This document shows positions 15,211 to 23,945 of a DNA stretch of 24,000 nucleotides, in pieces. Within the stretch, counting starts at the first letter, position 1. Every line of letters begins with the position of its first letter. Below the pieces are notes generated by a model. That model worked only from the letters and a program-made list of their open reading frames with translations, searched no databases and had not been told where the DNA came from. The translations under genes were made by a program, and so were the position numbers. Source of the stretch: an uncultured Alphaproteobacteria bacterium (GTDB lineage Bacteria; Pseudomonadota; Alphaproteobacteria; Rhodospirillales; Defluviicoccaceae); assembly GCA_963771545.1 (NCBI GenBank), contig CAVYTX010000003.1, positions 814,971-838,970 of the forward strand, in the 5' to 3' direction.

Positions 15211-16416
15211 TCAGGCTGGGTCGCCCGGTTGTTTCGCGCGCAGGTCACGCGCAACCAGCTTGAGGGACCATAAGCTCAGCCCGATGACCGCCGCCATCAC
15301 CATGGCGCCGCCCAGAAACGGCCAATCCTTCCCGATGAAATAGAACAGGGCGCCGGCCCATCCGGGTCCCATCACCCGGGCCAGCGTGGTGACGGACCGG
15401 GCGACGCCCATGGTCCCCCCCTGCAAGTCCGCGCCCACCTGCAAGGAAATGAGGCTGTTGAGCGATGGCGACACCAGGCTGAACCCGAGGGCGACGATCA
15501 CCATCGCCGCCAGCAATGGGGCCAGCGATGTGGAGAACGGGATCATCAGCATTCCCAACGCCAGCGCGATCGAGCCGAACACGACCAACCGTCCTTCGCC
15601 GAACCGCTTCGCCAACCGTCCGATCAGCCCCCCTTGGATCGCCGCGCTGAGCAGGCCGACGAAGGCGAACAGATATCCGTTTTGCTCCGGCCCCCAGCCG
15701 AACGACCGGCGCGACCACATGGCGAAGGTGGTCTCCATGCCGGCGAATACGAATGTGGCCAGAAACGATATGGCGAGGAGCAGACCCACCGATGGCCGGG
15801 CGAGGGCCGTTCTGAAAAGCCGCCATCGGGTGGGCGCCGGGATCGCCGCCTGGCGAGCGCGGGTGGCCGGAGACAGCGACTCCTTCAAGATCAAGGCCGT
15901 CAGCACTAATGCCAGGCCGGAGAGCGCGGCGGCGATCAACGAGGGCGTGCGGTAGTCCGCGGCGAGCGGATCGGAACCCGCGAGCGCGCCGCCGATCGCC
16001 GGTCCGAAAATAAAGCCCAGTCCGAACGCGGCGCCGATCAAGCCCATGCCTTTTGCCCGGTTTGAAGGCTCCGTGACGTCCGCGACATACGCAAACGCGG
16101 TCGAAATATTGCCGGCCATGGCGCCACCGGCCAGCCGTGCGGCGAACAGCATCCACAGGGTGTCCGCGAATCCCAGCCAGATGTAAGCGCCCACGGCCCC
16201 GGCCATGCTTGCCAGCAACACCGGCCGCCGCCCGATCCGGTCGCTGAGCCGGCCCCATAAGGGAGCCGCGAGGAACTGGGTGAACGAATAGGCGGCCATG
16301 AGCAGCCCGACCTGAGCGGGAGTGGCGCCGAAGTGCTCACCGAAAAACGGCAGCAGGGGAATGATCACCCCGAAGCCAACCAAGTCGACAAAAACAATGA
16401 GAAACAGAACGGGCAT
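15211..16416 (-). CDS. MFS transporter (DHA1 / Tet-like efflux family)
   Basis: 401 aa and hydrophobic throughout. MPVLFLIVFVDLVGFGVIIPLLPF...GRLSDRIGRRPVLL is the MFS loop 2-3 motif. Confidence 0.88.
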   Translation of the reverse strand: MPVLFLIVFVDLVGFGVIIPLLPFFGEHFGATPAQVGLLMAAYSFTQFLAAPLWGRLSDRIGRRPVLLASMAGAVGAYIWLGFADTLWMLFAARLAGGAMAGNISTAFAYVADVTEPSNRAKGMGLIGAAFGLGFIFGPAIGGALAGSDPLAADYRTPSLIAAALSGLALVLTALILKESLSPATRARQAAIPAPTRWRLFRTALARPSVGLLLAISFLATFVFAGMETTFAMWSRRSFGWGPEQNGYLFAFVGLLSAAIQGGLIGRLAKRFGEGRLVVFGSIALALGMLMIPFSTSLAPLLAAMVIVALGFSLVSPSLNSLISLQVGADLQGGTMGVARSVTTLARVMGPGWAGALFYFIGKDWPFLGGAMVMAAVIGLSLWSLKLVARDLRAKQPGDPA

Positions 16417-16575: not shown

Positions 16576-17769
16576 TTAACGCTGGGTGAGCTTCAGTTCG
16601 ATGCGACGGTTGCGGCGATAGGCTTCTTCGGTGTCCCGGTCGTCGAGCGGGTGGAACTCCCCGAAGCCGGCCGCCGCCAGGCGCCGGGGCGGAATACCCT
16701 GCTCGATGAGAAGTCTCACCACCGAGGTCGCCCGCGCCGTCGATAGTTCCCAGTTGGAAGGATACAGGATGGTATCGATCGGCCGCTTGTCGGTATGGCC
16801 GTCGACCCGCAGAACCCAGTCGATGTCGTCGGGGATCTTGTCGCTGATTTCCTTCAGGGTATTGGCGACTTGGCGGAGTTGGAGCCGGCCGTCGTCTTCA
16901 AGCTCCGCCGAGCCCGATGGAAACAGGACCTCGGACTGAAACACGAAGCGATCGCCGACGATGCGGACACCGGGAAGATCGCCCAGCGCTTCGCGCAGAC
17001 GTCCGAAGAACTCGGAGCGGTAACGCTGCAACTCCTGGACCTTGCTCGCCAGCGCCGCGTTGAGACGCTGGCCGAGGTTGACGATCTGAACATCTTGATT
17101 TTTTTCCTTCTCCTCCGCGGTCTCGAGGGTGGCCGTGAGTTGCCGGATCTGCTCGCGGAGCGCCGCCGTTTGCTGGTTGAGCAGCGCGATCTGGGCGCGG
17201 GCGCTTTCCGAAATTCGGCGCTCTTCGATCAACGCCGAGTCAGATTGCTCGGACTTGGCCGCCAAGGACGCGGCCTCTCGCTCAAGCTCCTCTTTCAACG
17301 CCCGCAACGCGGCGATGTCATTAGCCAACTGGGCCAGTTCCCGGCGTTGAGTATCGATGGCCTCGTCCTTGGACTCGACGGCCGCCGTGGATTCCGACAA
17401 CGCGCGCTTTAAGTCCGCCGCCTGGCTCTCGGCGCCTTCGGCCCGCTCGTTCAGCGCATGGACGGCGGCGGAAAGGTCGTCGCGCGCGCGCAGCGACGCC
17501 TGAAGTTCGGCGGAGATCTGTCCGATATTGGTGCTGAGTTGGTCGCTGGCCTTGCGCTCGAGCGCGAGAAGTTCGGCCAGTTCATCCACTTGTCCCTGGA
17601 GCCGTTTCAACGCCGTGTCGCGGCCGGATAGCGCTTCGGCGAGGAAGAACTGGGCCAGCACGAATACCATCAACAGAAAGATGATGACCATCAACAACGT
17701 CGCCAGGGCGTCGACAAATCCCGGCCAGGTGTTGTCGGGACGGCGGCCGCGGAGCGCTCGGGTGGCCAT
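16576..17769 (-). CDS. MotB/OmpA-family protein: N-terminal TM with conserved Asp, ~200-aa coiled-coil-like spacer, C-terminal OmpA-like peptidoglycan-binding domain
   Basis: 397 aa. The TM segment is WPGFVDALATLLMVIIFLLMVFVLAQFF (Asp20, in the position of the proton-relay Asp of MotB/ExbD/TolR). Residues ~45-255 are A/L/E/Q-rich and heptad-like. The C-terminus reads FPSGSAEL...VDGHTDKRPI...SNWELSTARATSVVRLL...RRNRRIELKL. Confidence 0.85.
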   Translation of the reverse strand: MATRALRGRRPDNTWPGFVDALATLLMVIIFLLMVFVLAQFFLAEALSGRDTALKRLQGQVDELAELLALERKASDQLSTNIGQISAELQASLRARDDLSAAVHALNERAEGAESQAADLKRALSESTAAVESKDEAIDTQRRELAQLANDIAALRALKEELEREAASLAAKSEQSDSALIEERRISESARAQIALLNQQTAALREQIRQLTATLETAEEKEKNQDVQIVNLGQRLNAALASKVQELQRYRSEFFGRLREALGDLPGVRIVGDRFVFQSEVLFPSGSAELEDDGRLQLRQVANTLKEISDKIPDDIDWVLRVDGHTDKRPIDTILYPSNWELSTARATSVVRLLIEQGIPPRRLAAAGFGEFHPLDDRDTEEAYRRNRRIELKLTQR

Positions 17770-17790
17770 GCGTACGGTCCCGTCCCCGCG

Positions 17791-18939
17791 TCAGCGCTCG
17801 GCGTCTTCGGCGAGCGCCGCGATCGTGCGGGCAAGCAGCCGGATCTCGCTTCTCAACTGCTGGATGATGTCTTCCCGCCCGGCGCTCACTTCTTCGAGCA
17901 AGCGAGCCGCGTAGACCTCGAGGTTACGGACGTGCGTGCGCGTCGCTTCATCCAGGCCGGTGCTTGCGCCTTGGCTGGTGCTGTCGGCCAACCGGGCGAG
18001 AACCGGCCGCAATTCGCTCTGGCCTTCCGCCAGCCTGAGCATCAGACCCTGCTCCGCGCGCATCTGATCGGTGAGGGCGCCGATATTCTCGCCGAGCCCG
18101 ATCAGCTGGGAATGAGTCGACACCCGGTTTTCCTCCCCGCGAGCGATGGTTCGCTGCAGTCCGTCGAGACTTTCGGCCGTCTGCTCCAGCAAGGCCTGAA
18201 CATAGGCGGGAACGGAATGCTCGCCTTCGCCCGACAGAGCGCCGCTGGAAAGCCGGGTCACGCCGGAGAGCCACTCCTCGAGGTCGTTGTAGAAACGGTT
18301 CTGAGCCTGACCGGCCTGCAGGTCGAGAAATCCGAGGATCAGGGAACCTCCGAGGCCGAAAAGCGACGATGAGAAGGCCGTCCCCATCCCGGAGAGCGGC
18401 GCCTCCAAACCCCGCTTCAGATCGGTGAAAACGGTGGCGAGATCGCCACTTTCCACCGACAGCCCGCGAATGACGTCGCCGATGGAGCCGATCGTCTGCA
18501 GCAGCCCCCAAAACGTGCCCAACAGCCCGAGAAAGATCAGAAGCCCGATCGTATAGCGCGACAGATCGCGAGATTCGTCAAGCCGCGACGCAATGCCGTC
18601 CAGCAGCGAGCGCATCGCCATTGCCGACAGCGACAACCGGCTCTTGCGTTCGCCAAGCATGGTTGCCATCGGCGCTAACAGCTTCGGCGGCTTGCCGCTG
18701 ACGGCGCCGATCCGTTCGCCGCGGAAGCTCTCGATCCATGTCACCTCCGGGCCGAGCATGATGACCTGGCGGAAATTGTAGAGAATGCCAAGCACCATGA
18801 CGCCGAGGATCAAGCCGTTGAGCGGGGCGTTCGCCAGGAACGCGTCTCGCAACGGCGGATAAAGCAGGGCTGAAAGGACCGCCACCGCAACCACAAACAC
18901 GGCCATGCGGACCAAGAAACGTCGCGGCCGGGTCATCAC
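17791..18939 (-). CDS. MotA/TolQ/ExbB-family proton-channel protein with ~165-aa C-terminal helical tail
   Basis: 382 aa. Two N-terminal TM segments and a ~80-aa loop are followed by the channel core IGLLIFLGLLGTFWGLLQTIG...PLSGMGTAFSSSLFGLGGSLILGFL. Then comes a charged helical tail (...LLEQTAESLDGLQRTIARGEENRV...QLRSEIRLLARTIAALAEDAER). Start is GTG 18939 or ATG 18936. Confidence 0.85.
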   Translation of the reverse strand: MMTRPRRFLVRMAVFVVAVAVLSALLYPPLRDAFLANAPLNGLILGVMVLGILYNFRQVIMLGPEVTWIESFRGERIGAVSGKPPKLLAPMATMLGERKSRLSLSAMAMRSLLDGIASRLDESRDLSRYTIGLLIFLGLLGTFWGLLQTIGSIGDVIRGLSVESGDLATVFTDLKRGLEAPLSGMGTAFSSSLFGLGGSLILGFLDLQAGQAQNRFYNDLEEWLSGVTRLSSGALSGEGEHSVPAYVQALLEQTAESLDGLQRTIARGEENRVSTHSQLIGLGENIGALTDQMRAEQGLMLRLAEGQSELRPVLARLADSTSQGASTGLDEATRTHVRNLEVYAARLLEEVSAGREDIIQQLRSEIRLLARTIAALAEDAER

Positions 18940-18980
18940 GACAGACTTTTCCAGTTCTTAAGAAGGTTAGAGTACACGCA

Positions 18981-20165
18981 TTATCGCTGGACGACTTTGA
19001 CGTCAACCCGGTCCATGGGGGCTGAAGGCGCTTTGTCGCCCAAGGCGCGCACGTCGATGCGGCTGGTTTTGATCCCGTTTTCGATCAGGTAGGACCGCAC
19101 CGATAATGCGCGCGACAGCGACATCCGCCGCGCCTTGCTGGGCGATAAATTCTCGCCGTCCGCGTAAGCCAGGAGTTGCAGTCGCAAATTTTCCTGCGAT
19201 CGGAGCCGATCCGCCAAATCCTTGAGTTCGGCGCGCGACGAACTGGTCAAGCTTGTATCGGTCGCCCCGAACTCGACTTGGAGCAAGTCCCCCGTCGCCT
19301 GGGTCCCTTCGGAGGGAGGAAGCGAGCCTTGCTCCATGCGTGCCGCCGGCTGCAGCGCAACCGACTTCTCATCCGCCTGGGGGAGGGGCGTTGTCACGGC
19401 TTGTTTCGTCGCGGGGGCGGACGGGGGTTCGATCGCCGCCGCCGACCCGGATGCACCGGTAAGCTCCTGGCTCAACGGAGGCGTTGATGCCGTCTCTTCT
19501 CCCGGCGGCAAGGCCGGTGGGGTGGACAATTCGTGTTCCGCTTCGGGAGCGGAAGCGGCGCCGGTCGCCGTTGGGGCGATGGCCGCCACATCGGCGGCTG
19601 GACGCGGCCTTGGCCCAAGGCGCGCCGGGCCGGTGTCGTCGGGGCCCAGAATTTGAGGCCGCGATGGCGTGGGGCCGACAACGGCTCCCGTACGTGAGGG
19701 CGCCGTGACCGCGCGCGGCTCCTGACCGATGCTTGTGGCTGCCCCTTGAGGGCGCGGACTTGTTTCTTGAGGACGGGGCGCGGGCGTCAGATCGGTCAGC
19801 TCAAGGGCCCGCAATCGAGGTGATTGCCGCTTGGACCCCGGCGGTCTCAGATTCGCCGTTCTTTGCCGAGGCGGATTCAGCGTCGCGTATGGAAGGCTGT
19901 CCGGATCCGGTTCATAAAGTTGCGACTGCGGAAACACGTCCGGCCTCGGCATGATCAGGCCGCCAGGCCGTGCGAGCGAGGGGCGAGTCGACCCCGACCC
20001 TTGGTCCTCGATGACGCTGAGATCCACCGTGACGCTGGGATTGGCGGGCGCGTCGTCCTGGGCGCGCGCGGCGGCGGCAAACAGCACGGTCGCGGCGACC
20101 GCTGCCGCAAAACCAGCCTTGGCTCCGCTGAAATGCCTGCGTTCGGATGAGATCACGATGCGCAA
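18981..20165 (-). CDS. Secreted Pro/Ser/Thr/Ala-rich protein with C-terminal OmpA-like domain
   Basis: 394 aa with a TTG start. The signal peptide is ...AAAVAATVLFAAAARA|QDD, followed by ~250 aa of low-complexity Pro-rich sequence. The C-terminus reads LQVEFGATDTSLTSSSRAELKDLADRL...LLAYADGENLSPSKARRMSLSRALSVRSYLIENGI...IDVRALGDK, a degenerate OmpA_C pattern. Confidence 0.7.
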   Translation of the reverse strand: MRIVISSERRHFSGAKAGFAAAVAATVLFAAAARAQDDAPANPSVTVDLSVIEDQGSGSTRPSLARPGGLIMPRPDVFPQSQLYEPDPDSLPYATLNPPRQRTANLRPPGSKRQSPRLRALELTDLTPAPRPQETSPRPQGAATSIGQEPRAVTAPSRTGAVVGPTPSRPQILGPDDTGPARLGPRPRPAADVAAIAPTATGAASAPEAEHELSTPPALPPGEETASTPPLSQELTGASGSAAAIEPPSAPATKQAVTTPLPQADEKSVALQPAARMEQGSLPPSEGTQATGDLLQVEFGATDTSLTSSSRAELKDLADRLRSQENLRLQLLAYADGENLSPSKARRMSLSRALSVRSYLIENGIKTSRIDVRALGDKAPSAPMDRVDVKVVQR

Positions 20166-20246
20166 GTTATCCTAGACGATTGAAACATCGACAAACCAGA
20201 CTAACGAAGAACCCAATTCCGCACAACGGTCTTGCTCGCTCAGTAT

Positions 20247-20269
20247 TATCGAATATAGATACTTCGATA
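20247..20269. promoter_or_regulatory. Inverted repeat TATCGAA-N9-TTCGATA in an AT-rich spacer upstream of the stator-like operon (candidate operator)
   Basis: TATCGAA at 20247..20253 and TTCGATA at 20263..20269 sit inside the unusually AT-rich stretch cagtattatcgaatatagatacttcgatattgtaaactta. This lies between the suhB stop (20288) and the start of 18981..20165. Confidence 0.3.
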
Positions 20270-20287
20270 TTGTAAACTTACGTCTTG

Positions 20288-23489: not shown

Positions 23490-23945
23490 TCAGCATCCGC
23501 GTTGGGACAGCCAGCTTCGGCACGCGCAAACGGGTTCGGGACAGTCGATCAAATCTAGAGCGGGAGGCCGCTCGCGAACGACGGTCGCGCCCGTCTGCCG
23601 CGCGATGTCGGCGACCCTGGCCAAAGTGGCCGGCGGAAGATCAACCCGCACGAATCCAACACCGTGACGAAAGGCGGCGAGCGCGAACCCGGCATCCCTG
23701 CCGCAGTCGAGAATGCCGATGGCGTCAATTCCGGGAAATTCCGCGGTCGCGGCGTTGATGATTTCACGAAACATCGGCGCCCCCATGTAAGCCGCGGCGC
23801 TTGGCGCGCTCCAGAGCGCCACCGGCAGGCCCGTGCCGGCCGCCGCCTTCAGGACCGCGCGCGCATGGTCTACACCGTGAATGACAAAGGCATGCCTGTC
23901 TAGCGGGCTGCGCATGTACGCTGTTTTCGCGGTTGCGCTCGGCAT
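23490..23945 (-). CDS. Hypothetical protein (151 aa), family not recognised
   Basis: The ORF is uninterrupted, with GC3-rich, coding-like codon usage and no Arg-rich shadow character. No motif I recognise. No SD precedes the first ATG, so the start is uncertain. Confidence 0.5.
   Translation of the reverse strand: MPSATAKTAYMRSPLDRHAFVIHGVDHARAVLKAAAGTGLPVALWSAPSAAAYMGAPMFREIINAATAEFPGIDAIGILDCGRDAGFALAAFRHGVGFVRVDLPPATLARVADIARQTGATVVRERPPALDLIDCPEPVCACRSWLSQRGC

What the first reader, a model, noticed from the sequence alone, without database searches (positions are those of the whole stretch)
16576..20165. Orphan three-gene MotA/MotB-like stator operon with coiled-coil extensions and an extra OmpA-domain partner
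Three co-oriented genes with 41-nt and 21-nt gaps look like one operon.
(i) 18981..20165 encodes a signal-peptide protein with ~250 aa of Pro-rich linker and a degenerate OmpA-like C-terminus.
(ii) 17791..18939 encodes a MotA/ExbB/TolQ-type channel core (LGLLGTFWGLLQTIG ... GMGTAFSSSLFGLGGSLILGF). A ~165-aa charged helical tail follows it, which classical MotA, TolQ and ExbB lack.
(iii) 16576..17769 encodes a MotB-like subunit. It has the membrane-embedded Asp (GFVD20ALATLL) and a bona fide OmpA peptidoglycan-binding domain, but the two are separated by ~200 aa of heptad-like A/L/E/Q-rich sequence instead of the short MotB plug and linker.
Established knowledge is that Asp-bearing B subunits with A-subunit pentamers form 5:2 ion-driven rotary motors (MotAB, ExbBD, TolQR, GldLM, ZorAB). 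A tailed A subunit is the hallmark of Zorya ZorA.
Here no flagellar, Tol-Pal, TonB or ZorC/D/E-like genes are present. The flanks are housekeeping (suhB and efp upstream, an MFS gene downstream), and the long extension sits on the B subunit as well. I do not recognise this architecture as any characterised motor, so it is a candidate for an uncharacterised envelope-spanning, ion-driven machine.
Basis: partly seen in the sequence, partly recalled or inferred. Interest (0 to 1): 0.72.

Follow-up and report, generated by a model that had tools for sequence, protein, structure and literature searches.

The report
Conserved non-flagellar MotAB-like membrane motor operon
These three genes encode a peptidoglycan-anchored, ion-driven membrane motor of the MotAB/TolQR/ZorAB kind that is inherited vertically across Alphaproteobacteria. 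It is usually mislabelled as a flagellar stator, and its cellular job is still unknown.

Summary
Three co-oriented minus-strand genes are separated by 41-nt and 21-nt gaps.

- **C (18981..20165):** signal peptide, Pro-rich spacer and an OmpA-like end.
- **A (17791..18939):** a four-helix membrane core, then a 138-aa helical C-terminal domain joined by a flexible linker. Its predicted fold matches only A subunits of 5:2 motors (ExbB, TolQ, ZorA, MotA).
- **B (16576..17769):** invariant WPGFVD20 in its single membrane helix, about 220 aa of heptad coiled coil, and a true OmpA domain.

It is not an orphan. A is followed directly by B in 80 of 81 related loci. The block thiE–efp–suhB–(C)–A–B recurs from Rhodospirillales to Sinorhizobium, and A is as conserved as SuhB. 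C is a lineage-specific accessory gene.

It is not a flagellar stator, Tol, Ton or Zorya system. Primer-derived termini identify the "motA/motB" genes of flagellum-less Komagataeibacter hansenii as likely orthologues. There, overexpression elongates cells and the proteins sit at the poles, but no mechanism or partner is known.

A new finding is that B length varies from 334 to 660 aa in whole heptads.

**Verdict:** a real, widespread, mechanistically undefined variant of the 5:2 motor family.

The parts
20166..20287 (-). Intergenic region between the suhB stop and the C start. It is AT-rich and holds a perfect 7-bp inverted repeat, TATCGAA-N9-TTCGATA (20247..20269). It is a possible promoter or operator for the operon.
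   Evidence: Read directly from the sequence. The consensus scan found no sigma-70 site, and no motif is conserved across relatives.
18981..20165 (-). Gene C, an accessory periplasmic protein. Domains: signal peptide (residues 1-35, 20165..20061); conserved N-terminal motif VTVDLSVI (residues 45-52, 20033..20010); Pro/Ala-rich spacer (residues 53-290); OmpA-like domain (residues 291-394, 19295..18984).
   Evidence: C is present upstream of A in at least 57 of 81 loci.
17791..18939 (-). Gene A, the channel/rotor subunit. Predicted membrane helices at residues 6-25, 38-60, 129-152 and 189-207. Invariant GLLGT142FWG (Thr codon 18516..18514) and GMGTAFSSS. Juxtamembrane helix to residue 232, Gly/Ser linker 233-244, and conserved helical hairpin 245-382 (18207..17794).
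16576..17769 (-). Gene B, the peptidoglycan-anchored stator subunit. Membrane helix at residues 15-43 with Asp20 (17712..17710). Conserved post-membrane segment 44-72. Heptad coiled coil to residue 262 (17640..16984), with its variable part at 73-182. OmpA domain 263-397 (16983..16579).

Best explanation
A and B form a non-flagellar, peptidoglycan-anchored, ion-driven motor of the 5:2 class (A5B2). It is inherited vertically in Alphaproteobacteria and is orthologous to the 'MotA/MotB' of flagellum-less Komagataeibacter.

What is shown:
- A has the fold and the invariant Thr/Ser channel motifs of ExbB/TolQ/ZorA/MotA subunits.
- B has the invariant membrane Asp and a canonical OmpA peptidoglycan-binding domain.
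- The two genes are almost always adjacent.
- The family is as conserved as housekeeping genes.

What is inferred by analogy with MotAB and ZorAB:
- Two B helices sit inside a ring of five A subunits.
- Protonation and deprotonation of Asp20, facing the Thr142/Ser190-192 ring, turns A around B.
- B is held on the cell wall by its OmpA domains, at the end of a dimeric coiled-coil stalk. The stalk's length varies only in whole heptads, so the angular register between channel and anchor is preserved.
- The conserved segment just after the membrane helix (residues 44-72) may act as a plug.
- Output is most likely taken from A's conserved cytoplasmic helical hairpin (residues 245-382), five per complex on flexible tethers, acting on an unidentified cytoplasmic or polar partner.

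The Komagataeibacter data point to a role at the cell pole or in division and envelope function: polar localisation, and chains of elongated cells on overexpression. They do not point to motility or phage defence.

C is a secreted, Pro-rich protein with a partly degenerate OmpA-like domain. It is added in Rhodospirillales-type lineages and is probably a wall-associated accessory.
For: - Fold: all top Foldseek PDB hits are ExbB, TolQ, ZorA and MotA chains, with probability about 1.0.
- Motifs: GLLGTF[WY]G in 86/86 relatives and the Asp motif in 79/81. A's Thr142 aligns with the GTxWG motif of E. coli ExbB and TolQ.
- Profiles: PADLOC ZorA1 48.9 bits and ZorB3 84.6 bits. B passes NF006543 at 465.9 bits against a cutoff of 305.
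- B's OmpA domain resembles MotS, PomB and MotB structures.
- A is followed by B in 80/81 loci. suhB lies upstream in 53-55 loci. The same block occurs in S. meliloti and in a relative only 41% identical.
- Spread: at least 593 species-level genomes, and 635 clusters at 50% identity with E<1e-30.
- A's identity tracks SuhB's across loci, and GC is normal.
- B length is 5 mod 7 in 49/79 proteins, with p = 6e-9 on unique lengths.
- Topology obeys the positive-inside rule.
- Komagataeibacter link: primer-encoded termini are MTRPTTY and EFRLTDR*. The latter matches the RIE[LF]RLTDR ending found only in Acetobacteraceae-type loci. Published phenotypes and polar localisation are in PMC6570709 and PMC7347698.
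Against: - No multimer model or structure was made, so stoichiometry and rotation are untested.
- PF01618 is below its threshold for this A. A family profile finds no motor in the PDB by sequence.
- The A tail sits behind a low-confidence flexible linker, which would transmit torque poorly.
- B's coil is about 32 nm if continuous, and up to about 70 nm in the 660-aa forms. That is longer than a periplasm, so the simple stalk picture is incomplete. The monomer model (pLDDT 69) suggests a hairpin but cannot decide.
- The Komagataeibacter phenotypes come mainly from overexpression. The orthology rests on terminal peptides and annotation, not on full sequences.
- No output partner is conserved next to the genes.
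Confidence: 0.6

Rival explanations
1. It is a trans-envelope energiser of the Tol/Ton type. The A5B2 motor would pull on or position the secreted Pro-rich protein C, or another wall or outer-membrane component, to stabilise or remodel the envelope at poles and septa.
For: - C has a TonB/TolA-like layout: N-terminal hydrophobic segment, Pro-rich spacer and a C-terminal binding domain.
- A's closest folds are ExbB and TolQ.
- K. hansenii overexpression gives chains of elongated cells and polar foci, reminiscent of Tol-Pal.
- An MsbA-related lipid-type ABC exporter is a neighbour in 23 loci.
Against: - C's N-terminus is a variable, cleavable signal peptide (AxA|Q). It is not a conserved membrane anchor with the His-containing motif that docks TonB/TolA onto the motor.
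- C is missing from Defluviicoccus, Sinorhizobium and other lineages that keep A-B.
- B carries its own OmpA anchor, unlike TolR and ExbD.
- No TolA, TolB, Pal or TonB genes are linked.
Confidence: 0.17
2. It is a divergent flagellar stator, as NCBI and JGI annotation says ('flagellar motor protein MotA', 'chemotaxis protein MotB').
For: - A has four membrane helices like MotA.
- B's C-terminal half resembles MotD, MotS and PomB.
- One relative, 38% identical, lies next to flgE/flgD/fliK.
- K. hansenii overexpressers spread faster on soft agar.
Against: - No NCBIfam MotA model hits A at E<=0.1.
- hhalign against E. coli MotA gives probability 7.9. MotA ranks below ExbB, TolQ and ZorA in fold search.
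- B scores below every MotB/MotD/MotS cutoff.
- The pair is present in flagellum-less Komagataeibacter.
- It is not in flagellar clusters in the window or in about 85 other loci.
- From my own knowledge, not tested here: S. meliloti has separate canonical stator genes in its flagellar regulon.
Confidence: 0.06
3. It is a Zorya-like envelope sensor for phage defence whose effector genes lie elsewhere in the genome.
For: - The best profile matches for A and B are PADLOC ZorA1 and ZorB3.
- A has a cytoplasmic helical extension, and its size equals the 383-position ZorA type II profile.
- In one lineage A is followed by a soluble MCP-signalling protein and a STAS protein, which hints at signalling.
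Against: - NCBIfam ZorA scores are about 17 bits against cutoffs of 100 to 500.
- No zorC/D/E/F/G genes are present.
- The family is near-universal, syntenic and slowly evolving, whereas defence systems are patchy.
- ZorA has three membrane helices and a continuous tail; A has four and a tethered hairpin.
Confidence: 0.05

Closest known systems
Komagataeibacter hansenii 'MotA/MotB' (Jacek et al. 2019, PMC6570709; review PMC7347698)
   Same: - Very probably the same family.
- The genes are adjacent, A has four membrane helices, and B has one helix plus an OmpA domain.
- The A N-terminus is MTRPTTY, and the B C-terminus EFRLTDR* matches the Acetobacteraceae-type loci found here.
- The host has no flagellum.
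   Different: - The K. hansenii proteins are shorter (348 and 321 aa).
- No C-type gene was reported.
- Only phenotypes are known: elongation, colony spreading, altered cellulose texture, polar foci, and viable disruptions. There is no structure, no partner and no test of ion dependence.
- Full-length orthology was not checked here.
Zorya ZorAB (types I to III)
   Same: - An ExbB/TolQ-like A subunit with a cytoplasmic helical extension is paired with a MotB-like B subunit carrying an Asp and an OmpA-type wall-binding domain.
- These are the best profile matches.
   Different: - No effector genes are present.
- Inheritance is vertical and housekeeping-like.
- A has four membrane helices, not three, and its tail is a 138-aa hairpin on a flexible linker.
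- B has a coiled coil of about 220 aa that ZorB lacks.
- Scores are far below the NCBIfam ZorA cutoffs.
Flagellar stators MotAB/PomAB/MotCD
   Same: - A has a four-helix topology.
- B has an N-terminal Asp helix, a conserved post-membrane segment and an OmpA domain similar to MotS and PomB.
   Different: - A shows no detectable MotA sequence signal.
- There is no flagellar gene linkage.
- The pair occurs in non-flagellated bacteria.
- The stalk is far longer than the MotB linker.
TolQR and ExbBD
   Same: - These are the closest folds for A.
- They share the GLxGTxWG channel motif.
   Different: - A has an extra N-terminal membrane helix and a C-terminal domain.
- B has an OmpA anchor and a coiled coil instead of the small TolR/ExbD periplasmic domain.
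- No TolA or TonB partner is present.
NCBIfam NF006543 / PRK09039 'peptidoglycan -binding protein'
   Same: B is a member above the curated cutoff (465.9 bits against 305).
   Different: The model only names the protein. No function is attached, and A has no family model of its own.

Membership tests
5:2 ion-driven motor superfamily (MotAB/ExbBD/TolQR/ZorAB) | A subunit with the MotA/ExbB/TolQ channel fold | tested here: met
   The AlphaFold model has pLDDT 87.6. The top 50 Foldseek PDB hits are all ExbB, TolQ, ZorA or MotA chains. Pfam PF01618 is below threshold for this protein (18.3 against 22.9) but above it for the S. meliloti orthologue (23.9).
5:2 ion-driven motor superfamily (MotAB/ExbBD/TolQR/ZorAB) | B subunit with a single membrane helix carrying the conserved Asp | tested here: met
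   WPGFVD20 is invariant in 35/35 close relatives, and the motif is found in 79/81 loci.
5:2 ion-driven motor superfamily (MotAB/ExbBD/TolQR/ZorAB) | Polar Thr/Ser ring in the pore-lining A helices | tested here: met
   T142 is invariant in 83 sequences, and S190 and S192 are nearly invariant. T142 aligns to the GTxWG motif of E. coli ExbB and TolQ.
5:2 ion-driven motor superfamily (MotAB/ExbBD/TolQR/ZorAB) | A5B2 stoichiometry and ion-driven rotation | not testable with these tools
   No multimer prediction or experiment was available.
Flagellar stator MotAB/PomAB | A matches MotA family models or sequence | tested here: not met
   No NCBIfam MotA hit at E<=0.1. hhalign against E. coli MotA gives probability 7.9.
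Flagellar stator MotAB/PomAB | B reaches the MotB/MotD/MotS curated cutoffs | tested here: not met
   MotD scores 121 bits against 283, MotS 98.7 against 264, and MotB 66 against 301.
Flagellar stator MotAB/PomAB | Association with a flagellum or flagellar genes | tested here: not met
   None in the window or in about 85 related loci. The one exception is the L082-L084 group. The probable orthologue is in flagellum-less K. hansenii.
Zorya ZorAB | ZorA and ZorB reach curated family thresholds | tested here: not met
   NF033917 scores 17.3 bits against 500 and NF033915 scores 17.1 against 100. PADLOC models match only partially.
Zorya ZorAB | Adjacent effector genes (zorCD, zorE or zorFG) | tested here: not met
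   The neighbours are suhB, efp, thiE, an MFS or MsbA-related gene, cyaY and L31.
Zorya ZorAB | Long cytoplasmic tail continuous with the last membrane helix; three membrane helices | tested here: not met
   The model shows four membrane helices and a low-confidence linker (233-244) before a two-helix domain. The ZorA description is in PMC11946911.
Tol-Pal / Ton | TolA/TonB-type transducer with a conserved membrane anchor, plus TolB/Pal or TonB-dependent partners | tested here: not met
   C has a variable, cleavable signal peptide. No such genes are linked.
NCBIfam NF006543 (PRK09039.1-2) peptidoglycan-binding protein | Whole-protein score above the curated cutoff | tested here: met
   465.9 bits against a cutoff of 305.
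K. hansenii MotA/MotB (Jacek et al.) | Full-length reciprocal best hit | tested here: inconclusive
   Only primer-encoded termini could be compared. Both match, and the B terminus is specific to the Acetobacteraceae lineage.

The most novel reading that the evidence does not exclude
Alphaproteobacteria carry a fourth housekeeping 5:2 rotary motor beside Mot, Tol and Ton. It would be anchored to the wall through a heptad-phased coiled-coil stalk of variable length. It would drive, through five tethered cytoplasmic helical hairpins, a so-far unknown pole- or division-associated process. That would make it a ZorAB-like machine used for cell biology rather than immunity.
Probability: 0.4. Interest if true: 0.8.

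Novelty: new variant of a known kind. Interest (0 to 1): 0.62.

Why it matters
The characterised 5:2 motors each opened a field: flagellar rotation, Tol-Pal, Ton uptake, gliding and type 9 secretion, and Zorya.

This pair is conserved at housekeeping level across a whole bacterial class that includes rhizobia and acetic acid bacteria. It is routinely mis-annotated as a flagellar stator, and it has no known partner or output.

Defining it would correct thousands of annotations. It could also reveal how proton-motive force is used at the alphaproteobacterial cell pole or envelope. Finally, it would show what a ZorAB-like architecture does outside phage defence. Tractable hosts exist: Sinorhizobium, Azospirillum and Komagataeibacter.

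Tried and rejected
- **PDB by sequence.** A alone gave no hit. A family profile returned only coiled-coil noise.
- **hhalign of the family against single E. coli ExbB, TolQ and MotA sequences.** It matched only the GLxGTxWG motif, or nothing.
- **B monomer model.** Confidence was too low (pLDDT 69, pTM 0.39) to decide between a hairpin and a continuous coil.
- **BLASTP of C's OmpA-like domain against B's.** No alignment. A multiple alignment was used instead.
- **Regulatory motifs.** There is no sigma-70 consensus and no more terminator-like sites than chance. No CtrA box or shared motif occurs downstream of suhB in 55 loci.
- **Source contig.** Exact look-ups of the window's own A and B proteins were not on record.
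- **Literature.**
  - Searches for PRK09039, ZorAB-like, MotA-like and similar terms found no mechanistic study.
  - The S. meliloti Rgs proteins were considered and rejected as unrelated.
  - Guessed S. meliloti locus tags led nowhere.
  - The FIT/GIT survey of MotAB relatives (PMC12505986) and the force-transducer survey (PMC12204202) do not describe this family.
- **A recently acquired island.** Rejected on GC content and synteny.

Full report
**1. The observation**

The three ORFs are present exactly where reported, all on the minus strand:

| Gene | Coordinates | Length |
|---|---|---|
| C | 18981..20165 | 394 aa |
| A | 17791..18939 | 382 aa |
| B | 16576..17769 | 397 aa |

- The gaps are 41 nt between C and A and 21 nt between A and B.
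- Database copies of A begin at the ATG one codon downstream, giving 381 aa.
- GC content across the operon (0.62-0.67) is like the rest of the window.
- The remaining genes in the 24 kb are an acyl-CoA synthetase, a hydrolase, YgfZ, a LOG-family protein, an aminotransferase, a HAMP histidine kinase, tRNA-Ser, an HD-GYP-like protein, L31, CyaY, an MFS transporter, SuhB, EF-P, ThiE and a class I aldolase.
- No flagellar, Tol, Ton or Zorya gene is present.

**2. Anatomy of A**

- Pfam MotA_ExbB scores 18.3 bits, below its 22.9 threshold.
- NCBIfam gives only about 17 bits to two ZorA models whose cutoffs are 100 and 500.
- PADLOC ZorA1 gives 48.9 bits over residues 126-289.
- Neither the single sequence nor a 15-member family profile finds any motor in the PDB by sequence.
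- An AlphaFold model built on 83 relatives is confident (pLDDT 87.6, pTM 0.67).
- Its Foldseek hits in the PDB are exclusively A subunits of 5:2 motors: ExbB and TolQ first, ZorA from rank 31, MotA at rank 49.
- hhalign places the invariant GLLGT142FWG on the GLfGTvWG motif of E. coli ExbB and TolQ. It finds nothing in MotA.
- Hydropathy and the positive-inside rule give four membrane helices with both termini in the cytoplasm. That is MotA-like; ZorA has three (PMC11946911).
- After the last membrane helix comes a conserved juxtamembrane helix to residue 232. A variable, low-confidence Gly/Ser linker follows (233-244). Then come two long helices (245-323 and 331-381) that are conserved across the family.
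- The 'tail' is therefore a tethered helical hairpin, not a rod continuous with the pore helix as in ZorA.

**3. Anatomy of B**

- B passes NCBIfam NF006543 (PRK09039.1-2, 'peptidoglycan -binding protein') at 465.9 bits against a cutoff of 305. It falls below every MotB, MotD and MotS cutoff.
- WPGFVD20 is invariant, and the motif is found in 79 of 81 loci.
- The OmpA domain scores 61 bits. It keeps the GHTD Asp and the LSxxRA Arg and resembles MotS, PomB and MotB structures.
- Residues 44-262 are all helix in the model, with strong a/d periodicity (z = 6.1).
- Conservation is high in the membrane helix, in 44-72 and in 183-262. It is low in 73-182.
- Longer homologues carry a duplicated 42-residue module.
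- Across 79 loci, the length from the Asp motif to the C-terminus runs from 334 to 660 aa.
  - It equals 5 mod 7 in 49 of the 79 proteins, and in 23 of the 48 distinct lengths (chi-square p = 6e-9).
  - Other moduli show nothing.
  - The stalk therefore changes length in whole heptads, which keeps the register between channel and wall anchor.
- A continuous coil would be about 32 nm here and about 70 nm in the longest forms. That exceeds a periplasm, so it must fold back, lie flat or extend on activation.
- The monomer model breaks at 132-136 but is too uncertain to settle this.
- A lengths, by contrast, are nearly constant.

**4. Anatomy of C**

- C has a typical cleavable signal peptide (ARA|QDD).
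- A short motif, VTVDLSVI, recurs in about 20 of 50 orthologues in strict form and in looser form in others.
- The Pro/Ala-rich spacer varies greatly in length.
- The OmpA-like domain passes Pfam (41.5 bits). It lacks the conserved wall-binding Asp in most orthologues and has a deletion near its end.
- Its signal peptide is not conserved in sequence, so it is not a TonB/TolA-type anchor.

**5. Distribution and context**

- A has more than 8000 hits in the 5.8-billion-protein set, most annotated 'hypothetical' or 'flagellar motor protein MotA'.
- There are 635 clusters at 50% identity with E<1e-30.
The best 80 were alphaproteobacterial: Rhodospirillales, Azospirillum, Defluviicoccus, Kiloniellales, Thalassospira and Acetobacteraceae. 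A few bins were evidently mislabelled.
- B directly follows A in 80 of 81 loci. The exception is a 1.6-kb contig.
- C is upstream in at least 57 loci, suhB in 53-55, efp in 45 and thiE in 29. An MsbA-related ABC exporter (TIGR02204) lies downstream in 23.
- Sinorhizobium meliloti has thiE–sel1–suhB–A–B–ABC–rpmE without C. All sampled Rhizobiaceae have A.
- A low-GC relative, 41% identical, keeps L31–cyaY–ABC–efp–suhB–A–B.
- In another lineage A and B lie 5 kb apart.
- In one lineage A is followed by a soluble MCP-signalling protein and a STAS protein.
- In one group the pair sits beside flgE/flgD/fliK.
- A's identity across loci tracks SuhB's.
- This is the signature of an old, vertically inherited core function, not of a defence island.

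**6. Literature**

- Ten searches found no mechanistic study.
- Surveys of MotAB relatives and of periplasmic force transducers do not describe the family.
- One search surfaced work on Komagataeibacter hansenii, which has no flagellum.
  - Its only motility-like genes are an adjacent 'motA' (348 aa, four membrane helices) and 'motB' (321 aa, OmpA domain) (PMC6570709).
  - The published primers encode a MotA N-terminus (V/M)TRPTTY and a MotB C-terminus EFRLTDR*.
  - The first is the family's N-terminus. It is identical to the start of P0124, and the Acetobacteraceae loci read MTRPTSY.
  - The second matches RIE[LF]RLTDR, which in my set occurs only in the nine Acetobacteraceae-type loci.
  - I therefore regard these as orthologues, pending full sequences.
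- Reported phenotypes in K. hansenii:
  - Overexpression gives elongated cells in chains.
  - Colony spreading rises threefold.
  - The cellulose network becomes looser.
  - GFP fusions are polar, and bipolar in long cells.
  - There is no effect in E. coli.
  - Disruption mutants are viable and make denser cellulose.
  - The authors state that the partner receiving the energy is unknown.

**7. Interpretation**

- Shown: fold, channel motifs, the membrane Asp, the wall-binding domain, gene adjacency, conservation, and independence from flagellar, Tol, Ton and Zorya gene sets.
- Inferred by analogy with solved MotAB and ZorAB complexes: A5B2 assembly, ion-driven rotation of A about wall-anchored B, a plug role for residues 44-72, and output through the cytoplasmic hairpins.
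- The physiological role is not established. Polar localisation and division-type phenotypes in Komagataeibacter favour a pole, division or envelope function.
- Rivals and my estimates: a Tol/Ton-like energiser using C (0.17), a divergent flagellar stator (0.06), and a Zorya-like sensor (0.05). Evidence for and against each is in the structured fields.

**8. Verdict**

The finding is real and mostly well read. It is a new variant within the 5:2 motor kind. It is widespread, mis-annotated and barely studied, and its stalk and tail architecture match no characterised motor.

It is not an orphan, and it is not wholly unknown. I score interest at 0.62.

Noticed in passing
window 20247..20269 (minus strand), between suhB and gene C: A perfect 7-bp inverted repeat, TATCGAA-N9-TTCGATA, sits in an AT-rich stretch. 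It could be an operator or promoter element. It is not conserved in the relatives examined.
   Followed up: partly
B orthologues in loci L001-L092; window 16984..17640: B length varies almost twofold (334-660 aa) but in whole heptads: 49/79 proteins are 5 mod 7. The 439-aa forms carry a duplicated 42-residue module at about residue 122.
   Followed up: yes
L091:7635-9006: In one low-GC lineage, A is followed by a soluble protein with an MCP signalling domain (71.9 bits) and a STAS protein instead of B. This is a possible clue that the A tail talks to a chemoreceptor-like signalling module.
   Followed up: partly
L082-L084, 3300-7100: A relative pair, 38% identical, lies next to fliK, flgD and flgE on the opposite strand, with a DUF456 gene between. 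This is the only flagellar linkage seen.
   Followed up: partly
23 loci, e.g. L055:3243-5120; L086:8894-10708: An MsbA-related ABC exporter (TIGR02204, 871 bits) is a recurrent convergent neighbour just downstream of B. In the window an MFS transporter (15211..16416) occupies that place.
   Followed up: partly
L024, L028, L003, L072: Contigs labelled Patescibacteria, Mycobacteriaceae, Gammaproteobacteria and beta proteobacterium carry the alphaproteobacterial suhB–C–A–B block at 56-70% identity. They are probably mis-binned metagenome contigs.
   Followed up: no
window 23490..23945 (minus strand): A 151-aa ORF upstream of the class I aldolase has weak partial similarity to class II fructose-bisphosphate aldolase (E 3e-7, residues 19-102). 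What appears to be the same small ORF recurs upstream of fba in about 13 related loci.
   Followed up: no
public annotation of A and B homologues: [quoted passage not shown] The flagellar names are unsupported.
   Followed up: yes
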